From IMG/VR virus record IMGVR_UViG_2737471861_000024: 11,634 bases of DNA. The stretch is one strand, 5' to 3'. Shown piece after piece: positions 1,260 to 7,199 of the stretch. Position 1 is the first letter of the stretch. The number at the start of each line of letters is the position of its first letter. This stretch comes from a virus (lineage: Duplodnaviria > Heunggongvirae > Uroviricota > Caudoviricetes). The notes below the pieces were generated by a model that was not told where the DNA came from, did not search any database, and was given only the letters and a program-made list of their open reading frames with translations. The translations under genes were made by a program, and so were the position numbers.

Positions 1260-1919
1260 CTATCCTTCCTGGAGTTTGGTAAGCGTCAGATTTCCGCAGA
1301 ACACTGCGCCGGTGTCGATGTACATCTGGTTTGCATACACCAGTGGGTGATGTGCTGGCGTATGACCGAAGATGAACAAATCGGCACCGGTTATCTCCGA
1401 GACAATACCGTCCTGCGCGTCGCTAACCCGCTCACGATTCCATATCACCATTTCTTCTGGTACTGGCTTATCGAATGCGTATTCGTTGTGCGGGTAGTCT
1501 GCGTGACAGATGACGACCTTCTTATTGCCGGTAACCAGTTCGATAATCATCGGGAGGTTGGTAATCTTTGGCAGAAGGTATTTGAGTTGCACATCCTGCT
1601 CAGAATCAAGTTGGTGCCACCATCCACCGCCGTTTGACATCCAATGTCCGAAACTTCCGCCGTTGACCAGTGCATCCAGCATCATCTGCTCATGGTTGCC
1701 ACGAACAGCTCGGAACCACGGCATAGTAATCAAATCCAGGCATTCGACGTTTTCAGCGCCGCGGTCAACAAGGTCACCAACGGAAATAAGTAAATCGCGC
1801 GCCGGGTCGAATGAAACTTTGTCGAGTTCGTTCATCAGCAGCGTGTAGCACCCATGCAGATCGCCGACGACGAAGATATTGCACCAGTCAGCGCCATTGA
1901 TACGTTGATATAGGTTCAT
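1260..1919 (-). CDS. Ser/Thr protein phosphatase, PPP-family metallophosphoesterase (lambda PPase / NinI-like); start placed at internal ATG 1919 (MNLYQ...), not at the ORF-track start 2039
   Basis: GDLHG, GDLVDRG, GNHE metallophosphatase motifs; strong collinear similarity to recalled lambda PPase sequence ([71 protein letters not shown]); ATG at 1919 forms an ATGA overlap with the stop of the upstream methyltransferase gene. Confidence 0.85.
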
Positions 1920-2566
1920 GCTGCACGCTCCCGCCCCTGGTTGTCTATTGGTGACACCGGAGCATTGCTGAATGCATTTGTTAATCCGCCAATATCCAAC
2001 GCGTATCCAGGGTGTAGTTGCACTGCCGGGTCTTCGCACTGATTACCCCAAACATCGAAGCCATGAGACTTCTGGCGGGCGAACAGTTCAATGCGAGAAA
2101 CATCGCCTAACAATTGCACAAGTTTTTCACGAACGACATCTGGTTTTCTTGAATGCTCAAGCCGCGGTGCGGTAAATGACTGAACGATCCCTGCATTAAT
2201 GCGTGGAGGTAGTTTTCCCTTTACTGCAAACAGGCAATCTTCACTATTGGCGCGAGTCATGTGTCCCATACCCATAACCAGTTTATCTGGTTGTCGACTA
2301 CCACATTTTATCCACGTGAAGCCCTTCATGGTCATCAGACGGAATCCCCAGGCTTCAACAACTTTTAGCGCTTCGAGTGGTTGTGTTGGCACCCACCACA
2401 TGGCCAACAGACAGTTTTCATCGGCCAAATCCCACACAGGAAGGCGGCAGATATCCATCACACTCATAACCGGATATTTAAAACTGGCACCGCGATTACC
2501 ATCTGCGGCTTTGTCCCGGTATACCCAGGGTGGATCTGCATAGATTAGTGTGTATTTCTTAGTCAT
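1916..2566 (-). CDS. MT-A70 family DNA N6-adenine methyltransferase (phage orphan Dam-like MTase)
   Basis: 216-aa ORF with DPPW catalytic motif near N-terminus ([10 protein letters not shown]) characteristic of MT-A70-type N6-adenine methyltransferases; GGGGTGG Shine-Dalgarno-like sequence upstream of ATG at 2566; stop overlaps phosphatase start (ATGA). Confidence 0.8.
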
Positions 2567-3265: not shown

Positions 3266-4147
3266 TTACATAGATGTTTCGTTTAATTCTTCCCGACGAA
3301 CGCTGTAAACGTCGGTGGCTTTTGCCAGCAGTTCGTCATCATCTGAAAGTTTTTGTGCAATGTATTTGTAAGCCTTATCCAGTTCGGAGACAGTGCTGTA
3401 ATTCATCGCTGCGCTGGTAAAGGCCATCAGCATTTCTTCTGGATCACGGCTATCCGCTTTACGCGTTTGCTCATCAGGCTTTTTCGCTGGTTTAGCGTTG
3501 ATCAGACTGTTCATTCCCGCAGCAGTGGTCGTTTGCGGAGTAATGTCTCGCTCAACGCGCGGTGCCGTTTCCTGTAATTCGTCAGGGGTGTAAACACCGA
3601 GAAGTACATCAGGAGCGTGCAGGCGAGCCCATCGTTTCGTGCAAAGATAGGCAAGTTGCTGGCGCGGATCCTGTTCCCACAATGGAGAGTTACGCACTCC
3701 GGCTTGCGCCATACTGATGGTAAGCTCACGGGGTTCTGCTTCTCCTTTAAGAACCGCTGACACAGTTACCGTCAGATTCGGTGATTTATCTGTTTTGCCG
3801 TTAACATTCGACCAGTCACCGCTCCAGCGATAATTCAGGCGTGTCGCTAGCAGGCTGGAAGAGGATACGACCGCGTTTACCAACTGTGCTTCGTAGCCTA
3901 ACGTTCCGTTTACCACATGCGTTTTTTGCGCCACGGCGAAAGGGTTCATTCCCCACTGTGCCGCCTGCATGGTCACCGCCAGACAATCGGAAGGTTTGCC
4001 TTCAAGATGTTTCGGTACAGTCGCTTTGCTTTGTGACATCAACTCCGCGAAACGCACCAGTTGATTCATGCCCTCCGGGCTGAAGATTGCCGCAGCAGTA
4101 CCTACAGTTGCGCCTGGTTGTGATGTGATTGCGATATCATTGCTCAT
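3266..4147 (-). CDS. bet: Red-beta / Bet family single-strand annealing protein (recombinase)
   Basis: 293-aa ORF; ERDITP and surrounding C-terminal region resemble lambda Bet (ERQPERDITPVNDE); N-terminal region GMNPFAVAQKTHVVNGTLGYEAQLVNAVV typical of Red-beta family; start ATG overlaps stop of upstream nuclease gene (ATGA). Confidence 0.8.
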   Translation of the reverse strand: MSNDIAITSQPGATVGTAAAIFSPEGMNQLVRFAELMSQSKATVPKHLEGKPSDCLAVTMQAAQWGMNPFAVAQKTHVVNGTLGYEAQLVNAVVSSSSLLATRLNYRWSGDWSNVNGKTDKSPNLTVTVSAVLKGEAEPRELTISMAQAGVRNSPLWEQDPRQQLAYLCTKRWARLHAPDVLLGVYTPDELQETAPRVERDITPQTTTAAGMNSLINAKPAKKPDEQTRKADSRDPEEMLMAFTSAAMNYSTVSELDKAYKYIAQKLSDDDELLAKATDVYSVRREELNETSM

Positions 4148-4965
4148 ACGTACATATCCTGTTTACGTGCCCAGTCAGGGCGTTTAATAATTTCCACTCC
4201 GCCCCACTCATCGTTGATGCGGCATTCGTGATAGGTATTCAGATCCCGGCGGAACAGAGCGTGCCCGGCATCGACATCCGGCGCATCCAACTCGAACACG
4301 CGTACCGGATACCGACCACAATCAATGCTTTCGCTCACGGCAAGAAAGAAAAAACCATGCGGCTGACCAGTAACCTTCATTGCGCCTTCGCGGTACATTG
4401 CGTCCTGCACGTGGTAGCGGAATTCCTCGATGTGGCGTGCAAAACGGTCCATATCTGCAACCTTTTTCACGTCGACGATCACGTTGTGCTCGTTCAGCCA
4501 TTTGTCTGGACGAATGCGGCACAACTCACCAGTCTCTTCATCGTTCCAGTACATTGATGCTTCGTAGTAACCAGGTGCTTCCAGCATCCAGCGTGCCGCC
4601 GGGTGAGCCATTGCGCTATCACGCATCAGCTCCAGTTTCCGCCACTGCTCGGCATCAAGTACCGCAATCCCCATATCCGCTACATCACGAAGAAATGCTT
4701 CTTCGTCAGCTTTACCTTGTTTCGTCCGACGATCGAACTTTGGTGAAACAATGAAGCGTTTGTCGAATTCTCCAGGTTCCAGAAGCAGACAGTGCAATGC
4801 AGTTCCCATATCTAGTGCAGACTTTTTCTCTTCGTCTTCTGGTGCTGCCTGAACCCATTTAAGAAGCGCCGGATTCTTGGCAACCATGTCCAGTTGCGAC
4901 TTACTCACGCCGTCACCGGCGTGGTAGTCTTCGTTGCTGATGTCGAAATAAATTCCCGGTTTCAT
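4144..4965 (-). CDS. PD-(D/E)xK family exonuclease (RecB/Cas4-like nuclease domain), recombination partner of Bet
   Basis: 273-aa ORF; motifs RPDKW ... IVDVKKV (D ... D-x-K) and downstream YHVQDAMY (Q..Y) typical of PD-(D/E)xK nucleases; sits directly upstream of and translationally coupled to bet, as in RecE/RecT-type modules. Confidence 0.75.
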   Translation of the reverse strand: MKPGIYFDISNEDYHAGDGVSKSQLDMVAKNPALLKWVQAAPEDEEKKSALDMGTALHCLLLEPGEFDKRFIVSPKFDRRTKQGKADEEAFLRDVADMGIAVLDAEQWRKLELMRDSAMAHPAARWMLEAPGYYEASMYWNDEETGELCRIRPDKWLNEHNVIVDVKKVADMDRFARHIEEFRYHVQDAMYREGAMKVTGQPHGFFFLAVSESIDCGRYPVRVFELDAPDVDAGHALFRRDLNTYHECRINDEWGGVEIIKRPDWARKQDMYV

Positions 4966-5261
4966 GCCGCGTCCTTCTGTCCATCAAGCTGATCCGCCAG
5001 ATCCCAGCGGGCGATAATTGCCATTGCCTCTCGCCGATATGCATCCATCAGTTCTTCGAACTCAGGGCTGTCTTTAGCTGCTTCCAGCACTTCCTGACGA
5101 ACGCCTTTGCCTGTTACAACGTCGAAAGTTGAGGACAGTTGATGAAGTCGGATGCTCTCAATCAGTTCAACTTGTCGGTCATATAGCTGTTCTGACAGGC
5201 GGTAGTCCTTGTCGAATGCCAGCATGATTTTTTGAAGATTTTTCTGCTGATTAACGTTCAT
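4962..5261 (-). CDS. Hypothetical protein (~99 aa from ATG 5261; GTG 5267 alternative)
   Basis: ORF with GAGGTGG Shine-Dalgarno overlapping upstream stop codon, ATG 7 nt downstream; stop overlaps exonuclease start (ATGA); no recognised motif. Confidence 0.55.
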   Translation of the reverse strand: MNVNQQKNLQKIMLAFDKDYRLSEQLYDRQVELIESIRLHQLSSTFDVVTGKGVRQEVLEAAKDSPEFEELMDAYRREAMAIIARWDLADQLDGQKDAA

Positions 5262-5268
5262 ACCCACC

Positions 5269-6303
5269 TCAATATTTGATATACGCGTCCTGCACTTTGC
5301 CGCCAGCGATAGCCAACATTGCTTTCTGCGCGAATTCTTCGGGAATGCCTTGGGCTATCAGATCTTCGATTACTCTGCGGTTAACGGTACGGCGATGCTC
5401 TTTATCCGCAGCTCGGCGCGCTTCTTCGTCGGCGATACGCTTCTGTTCGTCAAGGCGGGCTTTTTCTGCCGCCTCTTGGCGTCGGCGTTCCTCGGCAACG
5501 GCTTCTTCTTTTTCGCGTTGTGCACGCTGCTCTGCTTCAATTCGCTGACGTTCTGCTACTTCAGCACGTGCTTTCTCTTCCGCCGCCAGGCGTGCCGCAG
5601 CCTCAATTTCAGATTTCGCTTTTTGTTCAGCTTCGAGCCTGGCCTGTTCAGCAGCTTCCCGGCGGATATTCTCTTCTCGCTCAATGCGCGCTTTTTCCTC
5701 CGCTTCTTTGCGAAGTCGCTCCAGCTCAGCGGCTTCATGCTCGCGTTTTTGAGCTACTGCGAGTGATTCTTCCAGTTTCTGGATGGTTGAATCCTTGGCT
5801 ACTCCAGCTTCTGCTGCGTACTCATGCCAACTCTCATCAAGTGCTACTGATTTAGCCTCTTGAATTCGTTCCTGAATATCAGTTGATGGCAAGTAGTTTC
5901 CGGAGAGATCGATCACGTCAGCTAGTGCTCGCAAATTTGTCAGGCGTTGTTGCAGTGCTTCGGTGCGTAATTTCTCAGCATTTTCCCACTCGGTGAGTGG
6001 GCGGCGTACTTCATCACGAAGCCGATCGCATTCGGTTACGAAGCGTCGTAACTCTGCTTCAACTACTTTCGGCTGTTCTTTCAGGCGTTTCAGATAATCA
6101 CGTCCTGGTTTTTCTACCGCTGTTTTACTTCTTGAAACCTTCGCAGCCAGAGATGCAATGCGCTTTCTGCCTTTGTCTGTGCTAATGTCAGGCACTTCAT
6201 TAACACCTTCACGGATCTGCTCAAGAAACTTTTCCAGTCCTTTTTCAACGTAAATTCTTGGTGCCATATCTGGTGTGATTTCGATGATTGATGATTCACT
6301 CAT
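5269..6303 (-). CDS. Hypothetical protein with long E/R/K/A/Q-rich charged helical repeat region (coiled-coil or single-alpha-helix-like), 344 aa
   Basis: Long ORF; residues ~180-300 are nearly pure E/A/R/K/Q repeats (EAEQKAKSEIEAAARLAAEEKARAEVAERQRIEAEQRAQREKEE...) flanked by non-repetitive N- and C-terminal segments; start ATG overlaps stop of upstream small ORF. Confidence 0.7.
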   Translation of the reverse strand: MSESSIIEITPDMAPRIYVEKGLEKFLEQIREGVNEVPDISTDKGRKRIASLAAKVSRSKTAVEKPGRDYLKRLKEQPKVVEAELRRFVTECDRLRDEVRRPLTEWENAEKLRTEALQQRLTNLRALADVIDLSGNYLPSTDIQERIQEAKSVALDESWHEYAAEAGVAKDSTIQKLEESLAVAQKREHEAAELERLRKEAEEKARIEREENIRREAAEQARLEAEQKAKSEIEAAARLAAEEKARAEVAERQRIEAEQRAQREKEEAVAEERRRQEAAEKARLDEQKRIADEEARRAADKEHRRTVNRRVIEDLIAQGIPEEFAQKAMLAIAGGKVQDAYIKY

Positions 6304-6461
6304 TTGCTAACCTGCTCCCATATCTCGTTATCGTTGGCCACATCGCGAGCTTCTTTGCTGACGAAAGCCCACTTAATGCCTTCCTGTAAGGTGCGGAACC
6401 TCCAGCTCATGAATCCGCATGCAGTAACGCAGTACCAACCGTTGATGATTTTCCACTGCAT
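6300..6461 (-). CDS. Small hypothetical ORF (53 aa, MQWKIINGWYCVTACGFMSWRFRTLQEGIKWAFVSKEARDVANDNEIWEQVSK), first gene after the leftward early promoter; absent from the ORF track (under 60 aa)
   Basis: Hand translation of minus strand; GAGGT Shine-Dalgarno 8 nt upstream of ATG 6461; TGA stop overlaps ATG of the next gene (ATGA). Confidence 0.45.
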   Translation of the reverse strand: MQWKIINGWYCVTACGFMSWRFRTLQEGIKWAFVSKEARDVANDNEIWEQVSK

Positions 6462-6480: not shown

Positions 6481-6495
6481 TTACCGTTGAGGTAA
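6481..6495. promoter_or_regulatory. Operator-like palindrome TTACC-GTTGA-GGTAA overlapping the -10 / transcription start of the leftward early promoter
   Basis: Perfect 5-bp inverted half-sites separated by 5 bp; same motif recurs at 6543-6557, 7255-7269, 9586-9600 and 9648-9662. Confidence 0.55.
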
Positions 6496-6523
6496 TAATT
6501 ATGCGTATCTGGTTTGGTGTCAA
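6495..6523 (-). promoter_or_regulatory. Putative leftward early promoter (PL-like): -35 TTGACA (6523-6518), 17-bp spacer, -10 AATTAT (6500-6495) on minus strand
   Basis: Perfect consensus -35 hexamer with 17-bp spacing to an A2/T6-containing -10; flanked by operator palindromes; positioned in front of the leftward operon. Confidence 0.5.
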
Positions 6524-6568: not shown

Positions 6569-6594
6569 ATAAAAAAGCCGCCAGAAGGCGGCTT
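6569..6594 (-). terminator. Rho-independent terminator downstream of the repressor gene (minus strand): 8-bp stem AAGCCGCC/GGCGGCTT, 4-nt loop, followed by T-run on minus strand
   Basis: Hairpin aagccgcc-agaa-ggcggctt at 6575-6594; plus-strand A-run 6570-6576 gives a U-tract on the minus-strand transcript; lies 20 bp beyond the repressor stop. Confidence 0.6.
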
Positions 6595-6614: not shown

Positions 6615-7199
6615 TTATTGTTTGTTTTTTTCGTTCTGGTTGATGACAAATTCAATGTAACTTTCGATCTTTGCTTTCTCGGTTTCGGGTAACAATGCGT
6701 AGCGCGAGCGATCATAGTTGATGGTCGCAGGGTCGTGCGGGTGAATCAGTAATTCATAGCCGTGACGCCCGAATGCGGATGCAACATTCTCCAGGGTGGA
6801 AATGGAAACGCTGACCTCATTGTTTAACAGGCGGCTGATTGTCACCTGGGCGACGCCGGATGCGCGGTGTAGTTTTCCCTGCGTTGAAAGGTCGCGGCTT
6901 TCGCTCATCCAGCGTTCCAGGTTGTGAGCCGCCAACTGACCAATGTCGCTTGGGCCGACAGGATGAAAACCTTCCTGAGAAAGCGAGCGATCGATATCAA
7001 GCCAGTTACGGGGTTTATTGGCGGCAGCTTCAATTTTTCGCGCAACCTGGTCGCCGATAACTTTCTTGCCAAGAGCCCAGCGGTTTACCAGATTTGCCTG
7101 AGTTCCAAGTTTTTCTGCCATCCGCGTCTGAACACCATTGAATTCACGGTCGATCAAGTCGTTGAGATTTTGCCTGCGGACGTCCTGGATACTTTTCAT
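6615..7199 (-). CDS. CI-like prophage repressor with two tandem XRE-type helix-turn-helix domains; no peptidase-S24 (LexA-like) autocleavage domain recognisable
   Basis: 194-aa ORF divergent from the Cro-like gene; HTH 1 ~aa 25-70 (TRMAEKLGTQANLVNRWALGKKVIGDQVARKIEAAANKPRNWLD), HTH 2 ~aa 115-150 (ASGVAQVTISRLLNNEVSVSISTLENVASAFG); no Ala-Gly/Ser-Lys cleavage module seen. Confidence 0.7.
   Translation of the reverse strand: MKSIQDVRRQNLNDLIDREFNGVQTRMAEKLGTQANLVNRWALGKKVIGDQVARKIEAAANKPRNWLDIDRSLSQEGFHPVGPSDIGQLAAHNLERWMSESRDLSTQGKLHRASGVAQVTISRLLNNEVSVSISTLENVASAFGRHGYELLIHPHDPATINYDRSRYALLPETEKAKIESYIEFVINQNEKNKQ

What the first reader, a model, noticed from the sequence alone, without database searches (positions are those of the whole stretch)
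5269..6303. 344-aa protein with a ~120-residue run of E/R/K/A/Q-only helix
The central third of the protein is near-pure alternating acidic/basic residues (EAEQ, ERQR, EEKAR repeats), typical of single alpha-helix or coiled-coil spacers, between globular N- and C-terminal parts. The underlying DNA is correspondingly repetitive, so overlapping alternative-frame ORFs appear there. Such rod-like proteins are unusual in a phage early-left operon; it could be a spacer/ruler or a TolA-like interaction protein.
Basis: seen in the sequence. Interest (0 to 1): 0.45.

Follow-up and report, generated by a model that had tools for sequence, protein, structure and literature searches.

The report
Rod-like phage protein beside recombination genes
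This gene encodes a real, intact phage protein built as two small conserved end domains held about 20 nm apart by a stiff charged helix; it belongs to a very large, unnamed family that almost always sits next to phage DNA-recombination genes, so it is probably an unrecognised helper of phage recombination.

Summary
A 344-aa ORF on the minus strand (5269-6303) has a ~116-residue stretch (aa 185-300) that is 85% E/R/K/A/Q. It is not a fusion artefact: the same three-part layout recurs in thousands of sequence clusters. The layout is an N-terminal helical domain, a charged linker (median 140 aa) and a ~45-aa C-terminal mini-domain ending in Tyr or Phe.

The linker behaves like a charged single alpha-helix. 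It shows no heptad hydrophobic periodicity, has enriched i/i+4 salt-bridge patterns and almost no Pro or Gly. The DNA is purine-rich but not repetitive.

The protein is not TolA-like, because it has no membrane anchor. It is also not unusual in phages: 181 phage records carry it, and it matches PHROG 1376 (unknown function).

The gene is a precise 1053-bp cassette that is absent from phiV10. Across diverse phages it lies beside single-strand-annealing and exonuclease genes of five different recombinase types, on either side of them.

The C-terminal domain weakly resembles RuvA domain III in both sequence-profile and fold searches; neither result is significant.

Best reading: an accessory, rod-shaped adaptor of phage recombination modules. 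Its partners are unknown. No family in Pfam, NCBIfam, PADLOC or the PDB matches it, and I found no paper describing it.

The parts
5269..6303 (-). 344-aa ORF (the stop codon is 5269-5271). It is a member of PHROG 1376 (unknown function) and 98% identical to phiv142-3 Orf45.
5752..6303 (-). N-terminal helical domain, aa 1-184. The predicted helices are 11-17, 24-33, 43-126, 140-152 and 157 onward. Helix 43-126 is amphipathic (3.6-residue periodicity, z 6.4), and aa 43-80 carry net charge +9.
5974..6198 (-). Most conserved core of the family, aa 36-110. The motif is EVPDxxTxKGRxRIASLAxKVSRSKT...LRDEVRxPLTxWE, with invariant T42, G45, K60, K75, D93, R100, P102 and E107 in 28 diverse members.
5404..5751 (-). 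Charged linker, aa 185-300, with ER/K-type single-alpha-helix character. As an alpha-helix it would span about 17 nm. The family median linker length is 140 aa.
5272..5403 (-). C-terminal mini-domain, aa 301-344: two helices plus an extended tail ending in Tyr. The family consensus is RxADKxHRxxINxxALxALxxxGxxExxAKxxxxAIAxGxxxxVxIxY. It has weak RuvA-domain-III/UBA-like similarity.
5262..6314 (-). The 1053-bp cassette that is present here and in phiv142-3 but precisely absent from phiV10, TL-2011b and PAS61. The flanking sequence is 98% identical on both sides.
6300..6461 (-). Upstream 53-aa ORF (phrog_898, unknown function). Its stop codon overlaps the ATG of the 344-aa ORF (ATGA), which suggests translational coupling.
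4962..5261 (-). Downstream 99-aa ORF (phrog_856, unknown function). Its ATG lies 8 nt after the stop of the 344-aa ORF, preceded by GAGGTGG.
4144..4965 (-). RecE-type exonuclease, C-terminal nuclease domain only (273 aa).
3266..4147 (-). RecT-family single-strand annealing protein (293 aa).
6495..6523 (-). Promoter-like site (TTGACA-17-AATTAT, 10 of 12 matches) just upstream of the 53-aa ORF. The number of such sites in the region is no more than chance would give.
6575..6594 (-). Terminator-like GC hairpin plus T-run between the repressor gene (6615-7199) and the operon that carries the ORF.

Best explanation
The ORF encodes a cytoplasmic, rod-shaped accessory protein of the phage homologous-recombination module (single-strand annealing protein plus 5'-3' exonuclease).

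It has three parts:
- an N-terminal helical domain with a strongly basic, amphipathic long helix;
- a charged single alpha-helix about 115-160 residues long (roughly 17-24 nm);
- a 45-residue two-helix C-terminal mini-domain ending in an aromatic residue.

Shown: the architecture, its conservation, the single-helix-type sequence statistics of the linker, the optional-cassette status of the gene, and its near-obligate adjacency to recombination genes.

Inferred: the helix acts as a semi-rigid spacer, so that the two end domains engage two different partners at a set distance. Both end domains stay conserved while the neighbouring recombinase and exonuclease families change and hosts range across Proteobacteria. 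The partners are therefore more likely universal ones (DNA ends, ssDNA, or a conserved host DNA-metabolism protein) than the phage's own recombinase.

The protein would then tether, recruit or shield something at recombination intermediates. It would help, but not be essential for, phage recombination-dependent replication.
For: Architecture and conservation:
- phmmer of aa 1-185 against 1.84 billion representatives gave 4902 clusters at E<=1e-3 and 2634 at 1e-10.
- 106 of the top 150 are 290-400 aa, end in Y or F, and contain a charged block.
- The invariant and near-invariant residues are listed.

Linker:
- Median length is 140 aa (IQR 127-158), with no heptad signal and a salt-bridge z of 4.3.
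- Linker length is fixed within clades: 43 distinct HK544-type sequences all have the same length, and PAJU2-type sequences vary by +-1.
- The four main length classes of close relatives (337/344/348/355 aa) are explained by one 7-aa and one 11-aa indel inside the linker.
- BFVD family members align with 50-79 A rmsd over the full length. The relative placement of the helices is therefore not a fixed fold.

Context:
- In 229 loci with at least 3 kb of downstream sequence, an annealing protein lies within eight genes downstream in 76/77 window-like loci and 76/76 HK544-like loci (68 with RecT, ERF or Rad52 plus 8 with Sak4/DUF669).
- In PAJU2-like loci, 75/76 have a YqaJ exonuclease and 44/76 a recognised annealing protein.
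- In 10 further diverse phages the gene is directly next to these genes, or separated from them by one small ORF. Pseudomonas MR13, PAJU2 and Ab31, Leptolyngbya, Sinorhizobium, Shewanella and Acinetobacter phages have it upstream. Vibrio 219E41.1, Iodobacter PhiPLPE and Aeromonas phiARM81mr have it downstream.
- Five non-equivalent annealing-protein types are involved: RecT, Bet-like, ERF, Rad52-like and Sak4.
- The gene is dispensable: it is a precise cassette absent from phiV10, TL-2011b and PAS61.

A comparable slot next to annealing-protein genes in Firmicutes phages holds Mu-Gam-like, DUF2483, DUF1351 or Sipho_gp157 genes (PMC8093625).
Against: There is no experimental datum for any member. 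The evidence is guilt by association plus sequence statistics.

In lambdoid phages (HK544 type) the gene is separated from the recombinase by cIII, kil and small ORFs. There the linkage could simply reflect shared membership of the early-left operon.

The three large locus sets are each a clade of close relatives, so the 229 loci are not independent. The independent support is the roughly 12 diverse phages.

The single-helix reading rests on my own simple scores, not on a calibrated predictor or on biophysics. AlphaFold's model breaks the helix at 245-249 with pLDDT below 50, and I could not inspect coordinates or PAE, so a folded-back helical hairpin is not excluded.

No DNA-binding or protein-binding activity is shown for either end domain.
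Confidence: 0.5

Rival explanations
1. Gam-slot protein. The protein protects linear phage DNA by inhibiting RecBCD or another host exonuclease, or by capping DNA ends. It would be the functional analogue of lambda Gam, Mu Gam or Photorhabdus Plu-gamma, which occupy the same position upstream of the annealing protein.
For: Its position immediately upstream of the annealing protein and exonuclease in many phages matches the gam-bet-exo order.

The window phage and Ab31 have no recognisable Gam or Abc2. The BAS operon was stated to lack a RecBCD inhibitor (PMC6438905).

Plu2934, an unannotated gene in this slot, strongly raised recombineering efficiency (PMC4381043).

In Firmicutes phages a comparable slot next to annealing-protein genes often holds Mu-Gam-like genes.
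Against: 73 of 80 HK544-type loci also carry Abc2, a known RecBCD modifier, in the same operon.

The protein is near-neutral (linker -0.02 per residue), so it is not an acidic DNA mimic.

In three diverse phages it lies downstream of the recombinase instead.

There is no similarity to Gam or Abc2, or to any PADLOC or Pfam model.

The family also occurs in phages of an alpha-proteobacterium and a cyanobacterium, whose end-processing nucleases differ. That last point rests on general knowledge and was not tested.
Confidence: 0.2
2. RuvA-domain-III mimic. The C-terminal mini-domain docks on the RuvB AAA+ motor at the site used by RuvA domain III. The N-domain holds DNA or a recombination intermediate, so the protein would recruit or sequester host RuvB.
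For: A profile of 40 C-domains searched against all PDB sequences gives RuvA domain III as the top hits. Eight of the 21 listed sequences are RuvA, from several species, with a best E of 0.046.

Foldseek with a confident model of the domain (pLDDT 93.6) also ranks RuvA chains 1-3, including the RuvB-bound domain 3 of 7x7p.

Pfam RuvA_C is among the commonest weak hits, matching 3 of 40 members with a best E of 0.011.

The near-invariant Gly aligns with RuvA G171, and hydrophobic residues align with L167 and Y172. My recollection that L167, L170 and Y172 are RuvB-contact residues comes from memory and was not confirmed in the papers read.

RuvB is universal and conserved, which would explain why the C-domain is conserved across hosts. 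Cross-species RuvA/RuvB complementation is known (PMC9477746).
Against: None of the scores is significant: the hhalign probability is 27% and Foldseek E is about 2 with TM 0.54-0.62.

The third helix of RuvA domain III is missing, replaced by a 10-residue tail.

The position aligned with RuvA L170 is variable and often polar.

Glycos_trans_3N, UBA_7 and HhH models score similarly. A two-helix hairpin is a very common motif.
Confidence: 0.12
3. An early gene unrelated to recombination, such as host take-over, exclusion or a cell-cycle function. It would sit near recombination genes only because both are early-operon cargo.
For: It is an optional cassette.

In lambdoid phages it lies in the ral-cIII interval, which is known for variable accessory genes (general knowledge of lambda).

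A recent survey of 325 lambdoid phages reports very few genes of unknown function inside canonical Rec modules (PMC12315714), and in HK544-type lambdoids this gene lies outside that module.
Against: Direct adjacency is kept in non-lambdoid phages with quite different genome layouts, and on either side of the recombinase. Chance predicts about 6% per genome for lying within two genes. That figure is my rough estimate for a 70-gene phage.
Confidence: 0.17
4. Artefact: a frameshift fusion, or a non-coding low-complexity ORF.
For: None was found. The only hint is that several overlapping alternative-frame ORFs exist in the region.
Against: There are thousands of full-length homologues with conserved ends. 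Gene junctions are tight (ATGA overlap upstream, RBS overlapping the stop downstream). The AlphaFold mean pLDDT is 89.
Confidence: 0.01

Closest known systems
ER/K-type charged single alpha-helix (CSAH) spacers, as in myosin VI/X lever extensions and the helical linker of bacterial IF2
   Same: The composition is dominated by E, R and K with Ala. Opposite charges at i/i+3 and i/i+4 are enriched, there is no hydrophobic heptad, and Pro and Gly are almost absent. The linker connects two folded modules.
   Different: It is richer in Ala (23%) and Gln than classical ER/K motifs. It carries one aliphatic residue about every 7-14 positions, giving a weak period-7 signal (z 1.9-3.6) in the query only. 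No biophysical proof of a monomeric helix exists.
TolA (cell-envelope protein with a long helical domain II)
   Same: There is a long Ala/Lys/Glu-rich helical middle part, and public records sometimes name family members 'TolA'.
   Different: There is no N-terminal membrane anchor and no TolA domain III. The NCBIfam TolA score is 17.6 bits against a 213-bit cut-off, confined to the low-complexity part. The protein is cytoplasmic, phage-encoded and recombination-linked.
Lambda Gam / Mu Gam / P22 Abc1-Abc2-Arf / Photorhabdus Plu-gamma (accessory proteins of phage recombination modules)
   Same: It is a non-essential gene placed next to the annealing-protein and exonuclease pair, often in the 'gamma' position (PMC4381043; PMC12315714).
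   Different: No sequence or fold similarity was found. The protein is three times larger than lambda Gam and is not acidic. It co-occurs with Abc2 in most HK544-type phages.
RuvA domain III (Pfam RuvA_C, a UBA-like fold)
   Same: It is the best, though non-significant, match to the C-terminal mini-domain by profile and by fold. The two share a helix-Gly-helix core with aligned hydrophobic positions. Both sit at the end of a linker that separates them from the rest of the protein.
   Different: It has two helices, not three. Statistical support is lacking. The rest of the protein has nothing in common with RuvA domains I and II.
DUF1351 (PF07083) and Sipho_gp157, helical proteins encoded next to annealing-protein genes in Firmicutes phages
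   Same: They occupy a similar genomic slot and are helix-rich (PMC8093625; the Enterococcus phage LG62 DUF1351 protein was verified at E 2e-18).
   Different: hhalign of the N-domain profile against a DUF1351 protein gives probability 0.4%. No Pfam hit to either family was seen in 107 members.

Membership tests
PHROG phrog_1376 (unknown function) | Full-length match to the family HMM | tested here: met
   E 1.1e-120, covering aa 2-344 against profile positions 5-362 of 362
Charged single alpha-helix (ER/K, CSAH) | A long segment dominated by E/K/R with very little Pro, Gly or hydrophobic residues | tested here: met
   In aa 185-300, E+R+K+D is 57%, A 23% and LIV 11%, with no P or G. The family mean is P+G 0.5% and LIVMFWY 12.7%.
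Charged single alpha-helix (ER/K, CSAH) | Opposite charges enriched at i/i+3 and i/i+4 beyond what the composition gives | tested here: met
   z 5.5 against 2000 shuffles in the query. The mean z is 4.3 in 103 representatives, with 98% above 2. The score is my own, not a calibrated predictor.
Charged single alpha-helix (ER/K, CSAH) | Absence of the hydrophobic heptad (3.5-residue) periodicity of coiled coils | tested here: met
   The z at periods 3.5, 3.6 and 3.67 is -0.3 to 0.2 in the query linker. The family mean is -0.34 and 0.27. As a positive control, helix 43-126 gives z 6.4.
Charged single alpha-helix (ER/K, CSAH) | A monomeric, stable, extended helix in solution | not testable with these tools
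   This needs CD, SAXS or AUC. AlphaFold gives helix, with a low-confidence break at 240-248.
TolA | N-terminal transmembrane anchor | tested here: not met
   The maximum 19-residue Kyte-Doolittle mean is 0.78.
TolA | Match to the TolA model above its curated cut-off, including the C-terminal domain III | tested here: not met
   17.6 bits against a cut-off of 213, over aa 169-301 only. There is no Pfam hit.
RuvA domain III (PF07499 RuvA_C) | Significant sequence match to the domain | tested here: inconclusive
   The best PDB E is 0.046, with 8 of the 21 listed sequences being RuvA. Pfam RuvA_C matches 3 of 40 members, with a best E of 0.011, below the gathering score. The hhalign probability is 27%.
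RuvA domain III (PF07499 RuvA_C) | Three-helix UBA-like fold | tested here: not met
   The AlphaFold model of aa 297-344 (pLDDT 93.6) has two helices plus an 11-residue non-helical tail. Foldseek ranks RuvA first, but with E about 2 and TM 0.54-0.62.
RuvA domain III (PF07499 RuvA_C) | Binds the presensor-1 hairpin of RuvB | not testable with these tools
   No complex prediction or binding assay was available.
Anti-RecBCD proteins (lambda Gam, P22 Abc2) | Sequence homology to Gam or Abc2 | tested here: not met
   tblastn of both against the window finds nothing in this ORF. No Pfam or PADLOC hit was found.
Anti-RecBCD proteins (lambda Gam, P22 Abc2) | Inhibition or modification of RecBCD | not testable with these tools
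   This needs genetics or biochemistry. Co-occurrence with Abc2 in 73 of 80 HK544-type loci argues against simple redundancy.
DUF1351 (PF07083) | Homology of the N-terminal domain to DUF1351 | tested here: not met
   The hhalign probability is 0.4% against a verified DUF1351 protein. None of 107 members hits PF07083. The test is weak because the template was a single sequence.
RecE N-terminal region | Match to the full-length exonuclease VIII model outside the nuclease domain | tested here: not met
   NCBIfam PRK09709 (877 positions) is hit by the neighbouring 273-aa RecE-like ORF but not by this ORF at E<=0.1.

The most novel reading that the evidence does not exclude
The family is a phage-encoded surrogate or decoy of RuvA. 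Its C-terminal mini-domain would engage the host RuvB motor, or another conserved AAA+ or DNA-repair protein, in the way RuvA domain III does. The basic N-domain would hold the annealing intermediate, and a 20-nm single alpha-helix would set the reach. Phage recombination modules of all recombinase types could then hijack or block host branch migration.
Probability: 0.1. Interest if true: 0.85.

Novelty: new variant of a known kind. Interest (0 to 1): 0.55.

Why it matters
Phage recombination modules (Red, RecET and their relatives) are the basis of recombineering and a central part of phage replication.

This protein family is huge and conserved. It travels with these modules across five recombinase types and many host groups, yet it has no name, no Pfam model and no tested function.

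The BAS recombineering operon was cloned from phage Ab31 without the family member (Orf39) that lies immediately upstream of it. A recent survey of 325 lambdoid phages reports very few genes of unknown function inside canonical Rec modules, and in HK544-type lambdoids this gene lies outside that module.

If the protein helps recombination, it could improve recombineering in non-model bacteria. It would also reveal a new host-phage contact point. The protein is in addition a clean, abundant bacterial-virus example of a long charged single alpha-helix used as a spacer.

Tried and rejected
1. Known-family searches of the whole protein found nothing beyond a low-complexity TolA touch. These were Pfam, NCBIfam, PADLOC and PDB sequences. 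Pfam scans of 107 members also found nothing.

2. An N-domain profile against PDB sequences gave no hit below E 0.1.

4. The DUF1351 link was rejected by hhalign at 0.4%.

5. The idea that DNA repeats underlie the charged region was rejected.

6. The Plu-gamma (Plu2934) link could not be tested.
   - I recovered only its first eight codons (MNPYAVYD) from a primer. They do not resemble the family N-terminus.
   - Two genome-contig scans for that DNA found no Photorhabdus locus.

7. I tested whether helical phase is preserved by linker indels. The two indels among close relatives are 7 and 11 aa. Wider length classes (for example +1, +12, -4) do not keep phase, so I make no claim.

8. Literature searches for Sf6 gene 33, TolA-like phage proteins and new RecBCD inhibitors found no description of this family.

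9. One representative look-up for genomic context returned only 1-1.5 kb contigs.
Full report
**The object.**
- The finding's coordinates frame an ORF on the minus strand: ATG at 6303, stop at 5269-5271, 344 aa.
- Residues 185-300 are 85% E/R/K/A/Q.
- The window is the integrase-to-replication region of an Escherichia Uetakevirus (epsilon15/phiV10-like). It is 97% identical to phage phiv142-3, where the ORF is 'Orf45, hypothetical protein'.
- The gene order on the minus strand is: repressor (6615-7199), a terminator-like hairpin and a promoter-like site, a 53-aa ORF, the 344-aa ORF, a 99-aa ORF, a RecE-type nuclease and RecT.
- The 344-aa ORF is coupled to its neighbours. It shares an ATGA overlap upstream, and the next ATG follows 8 nt after its stop.
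- Relative to phiV10, TL-2011b and PAS61, the gene is a precise 1053-bp insertion (5262-6314) between flanks that are 98% identical. It is therefore optional cargo.

**Is it real?**
- Yes. More than 100 full-length homologues of 74-98% identity exist in Enterobacteriaceae prophages.
- A search with only the N-terminal 185 aa against 1.84 billion cluster representatives found 4902 clusters at E<=1e-3 and 2634 at 1e-10.
- Of the best 150, 106 are 290-400 aa and end in Tyr or Phe.
- The conserved plan has three parts.
  - An N-domain with invariant T42, G45, K60, K75, D93, R100, P102 and E107.
  - A charged block.
  - A C-terminal consensus RxADKxHRxxINxxALxALxxxGxxExxAKxxxxAIAxGxxxxVxIxY.
- A fusion artefact is excluded.

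**The charged middle.**
- The DNA is not repetitive: there are no tandem repeats in the linker-coding part and no direct repeats of 14 nt or more. It is purine-rich, and this composition explains the stop-poor antisense frames.
- At protein level the segment lacks the 3.5-3.67-residue hydrophobic periodicity of coiled coils, with z between -0.3 and 0.2. Helix 43-126 of the same protein shows it clearly, with z 6.4.
- Opposite charges at i/i+3 and i/i+4 are enriched 5.5 sd over shuffles.
- The same holds in 103 diverse members.
  - Median linker length is 140 aa (IQR 127-158).
  - Periodicity z is about 0, and salt-bridge z averages 4.3.
  - P+G is 0.5%, and net charge is -0.02 per residue.
- Within clades the length is nearly fixed despite the low complexity. 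The four main length classes of close relatives differ by one 7-aa and one 11-aa indel within the linker.
- AlphaFold (107-sequence alignment, mean pLDDT 89) predicts an all-helical protein with helices 43-126, 157-245 and 249-317 and a low-confidence break at 240-248.
- Family members in BFVD align over their full length only with 50-79 A rmsd. The mutual arrangement of the long helices is therefore not reproducible between models.
Solution data are still needed.

**What it is not.**
- It matches no Pfam, NCBIfam, PADLOC or PDB-sequence family.
- The TolA signal is compositional: 17.6 bits against a 213-bit cut-off. There is no membrane anchor.
- It is not rare in phages. The N-domain finds 181 phage records from Pseudomonas, Vibrio, Escherichia, Klebsiella, Erwinia, Yersinia, Acinetobacter, Shewanella and other hosts.
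- PHROGs lists it as phrog_1376, function unknown.

**Context is the main functional clue.**
- I fetched 240 loci around three clades of the family. I then called and clustered the neighbouring ORFs and annotated the clusters.
- Among loci with at least 3 kb downstream:
  - 76/77 window-type loci have a RecT, ERF or Rad52 annealing protein within five genes.
  - 76/76 HK544-type loci have one: 68 with RecT, ERF or Rad52 and 8 with Sak4 plus DUF669.
  - 75/76 PAJU2-type loci have a YqaJ exonuclease, and 44 have a recognised annealing protein.
- These sets are clades, so the more telling evidence comes from diverse phages inspected individually.
  - The gene lies upstream in Pseudomonas MR13 (one 47-aa ORF, then Sak4-like AAA, DUF669 and exonuclease), PAJU2 (ERF, exonuclease), Ab31 (Bet-like, exonuclease, SSB), Leptolyngbya Lbo-JY16 (ERF, YqaJ), Sinorhizobium phiLM21 (ERF, YqaJ, NinB), Shewanella 1/41 (exonuclease VIII, Bet-like) and Acinetobacter phi5013-M1 (RecT, exonuclease).
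  - It lies directly after the recombinase in Vibrio 219E41.1 (Rad52-type), Iodobacter PhiPLPE (RecE, RecT; RdgC follows) and Aeromonas phiARM81mr (exonuclease VIII, RecT).
- Adjacency on either side, across five annealing-protein types, is hard to explain by operon position alone.

**How this fits the literature.**
- In Firmicutes phages a comparable slot next to annealing-protein genes holds Mu-Gam-like, DUF2483, DUF1351 or Sipho_gp157 genes (PMC8093625).
- In Photorhabdus the unannotated gene in that slot, Plu2934, boosted recombineering (PMC4381043).
- The Ab31 BAS recombineering operon was cloned without Orf39, the family member just upstream. It was described as lacking a RecBCD inhibitor (PMC6438905).
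- A 2025 survey of lambdoid Rec modules reports very few genes of unknown function inside canonical Rec modules (PMC12315714). In HK544-type lambdoids this gene lies outside that module, between ral and cIII.

**The end domains.**
- N-domain: aa 43-80 carry net charge +9 on an amphipathic helix. A nucleic-acid or acidic-partner surface is plausible but untested.
- C-domain:
  - A 40-sequence profile gives RuvA domain III as the best PDB hits, with E from 0.046 upward. Eight of the 21 listed sequences are RuvA, from several species.
  - Pfam RuvA_C is among the commonest weak hits, and hhalign against E. coli RuvA gives 27%.
  - A confident model of the domain (pLDDT 93.6, two helices plus tail) retrieves RuvA chains as Foldseek ranks 1-3, at E about 2.
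- Two partly independent methods therefore point the same way, but neither is significant. The third helix is absent, and UBA, HhH and other two-helix motifs score similarly. I treat this as a lead only.

**Mechanism.**
- Both ends are conserved while the neighbouring recombinase and nuclease families and the hosts vary. The partners are therefore more likely universal ones (DNA structures or a conserved host protein) than the phage's own recombinase.
- The most economical model is a rod-like adaptor that holds two binding activities about 17-24 nm apart at recombination intermediates or DNA ends. It would be helpful but not essential.
- A pure Gam-like RecBCD inhibitor is less likely, for three reasons: 73 of 80 HK544-type loci also carry Abc2, the protein is not acidic, and the gene order is sometimes reversed.
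- An unrelated early function cannot be excluded.

**Verdict.**
The TolA idea and the 'unusual in phages' idea are rejected.
- The gene belongs to a very large, catalogued but uncharacterised phage family. Its strongest property is its linkage to recombination modules.
- Interest is moderate to good, because the hypothesis can be tested directly with standard recombineering assays.

Noticed in passing
window 3266-4965 (-), compared with L008 2996-4756: The RecE-type nuclease and RecT are two ORFs here, overlapping by 4 nt. The phiV10 record annotates a single 1761-nt RecE-RecT fusion CDS at the same place.
   Followed up: no
window 4962-5261 (-): A 99-aa ORF (phrog_856, unknown function) lies directly upstream of recE in all the Uetakevirus relatives inspected, whether or not they carry the 344-aa cassette. 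Its only link to lambda Gam is a non-significant tblastn touch (E 0.17 to Gam aa 100-132). It is another candidate occupant of the 'gamma' slot.
   Followed up: partly
L262 3495-4559 (Pseudomonas phage Ab31 Orf39): A family member sits immediately upstream of the BAS operon (Orf38-36), which is used as a Pseudomonas recombineering tool. The published work omitted it and added an exogenous Gam instead.
   Followed up: partly
L269 3459-4562; L268 3471-4478; hit H22; P0007: Family members carry misleading names in public records: 'integrase' (Aeromonas phiARM81mr p15), 'putative tail-fiber protein' (Iodobacter PhiPLPE gp77), 'TolA protein', 'cell envelope biogenesis protein' and 'septal ring factor EnvC'.
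   Followed up: yes
window 6495-6523 (-) and 6575-6594 (-): A strong terminator-like hairpin follows the repressor gene. A near-consensus promoter-like site (TTGACA-17-AATTAT) precedes the 53-aa ORF. The operon carrying the finding may therefore have its own promoter on the same strand as the repressor gene.
   Followed up: no
window 1260-2566 (-): A calcineurin-like metallophosphatase ORF (NinI-like) and an MT-A70 adenine methylase ORF overlap by about 120 nt as mechanically listed. Related phages carry either DUF1382 or the phosphatase at this position, so this is a second variable cassette site next to the integrase.
   Followed up: no
L007 3869-5155 (Vibrio phage 219E41.1): This divergent homologue is 428 aa. 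Part of its charged helix is replaced by a PVQEPVQEPVQEP proline-rich stretch and an extra acidic region, so the rigid-rod design is not universal in the family.
   Followed up: no
L004 3929-4897 (HK544 gp37) and P0124 (206 aa): A short variant of the family lacks the second half of the N-domain (query aa 127-184). It carries an 'ESDHEIAxLMxxxFDR' motif there instead. The minimal conserved N-module is therefore about aa 20-115.
   Followed up: partly
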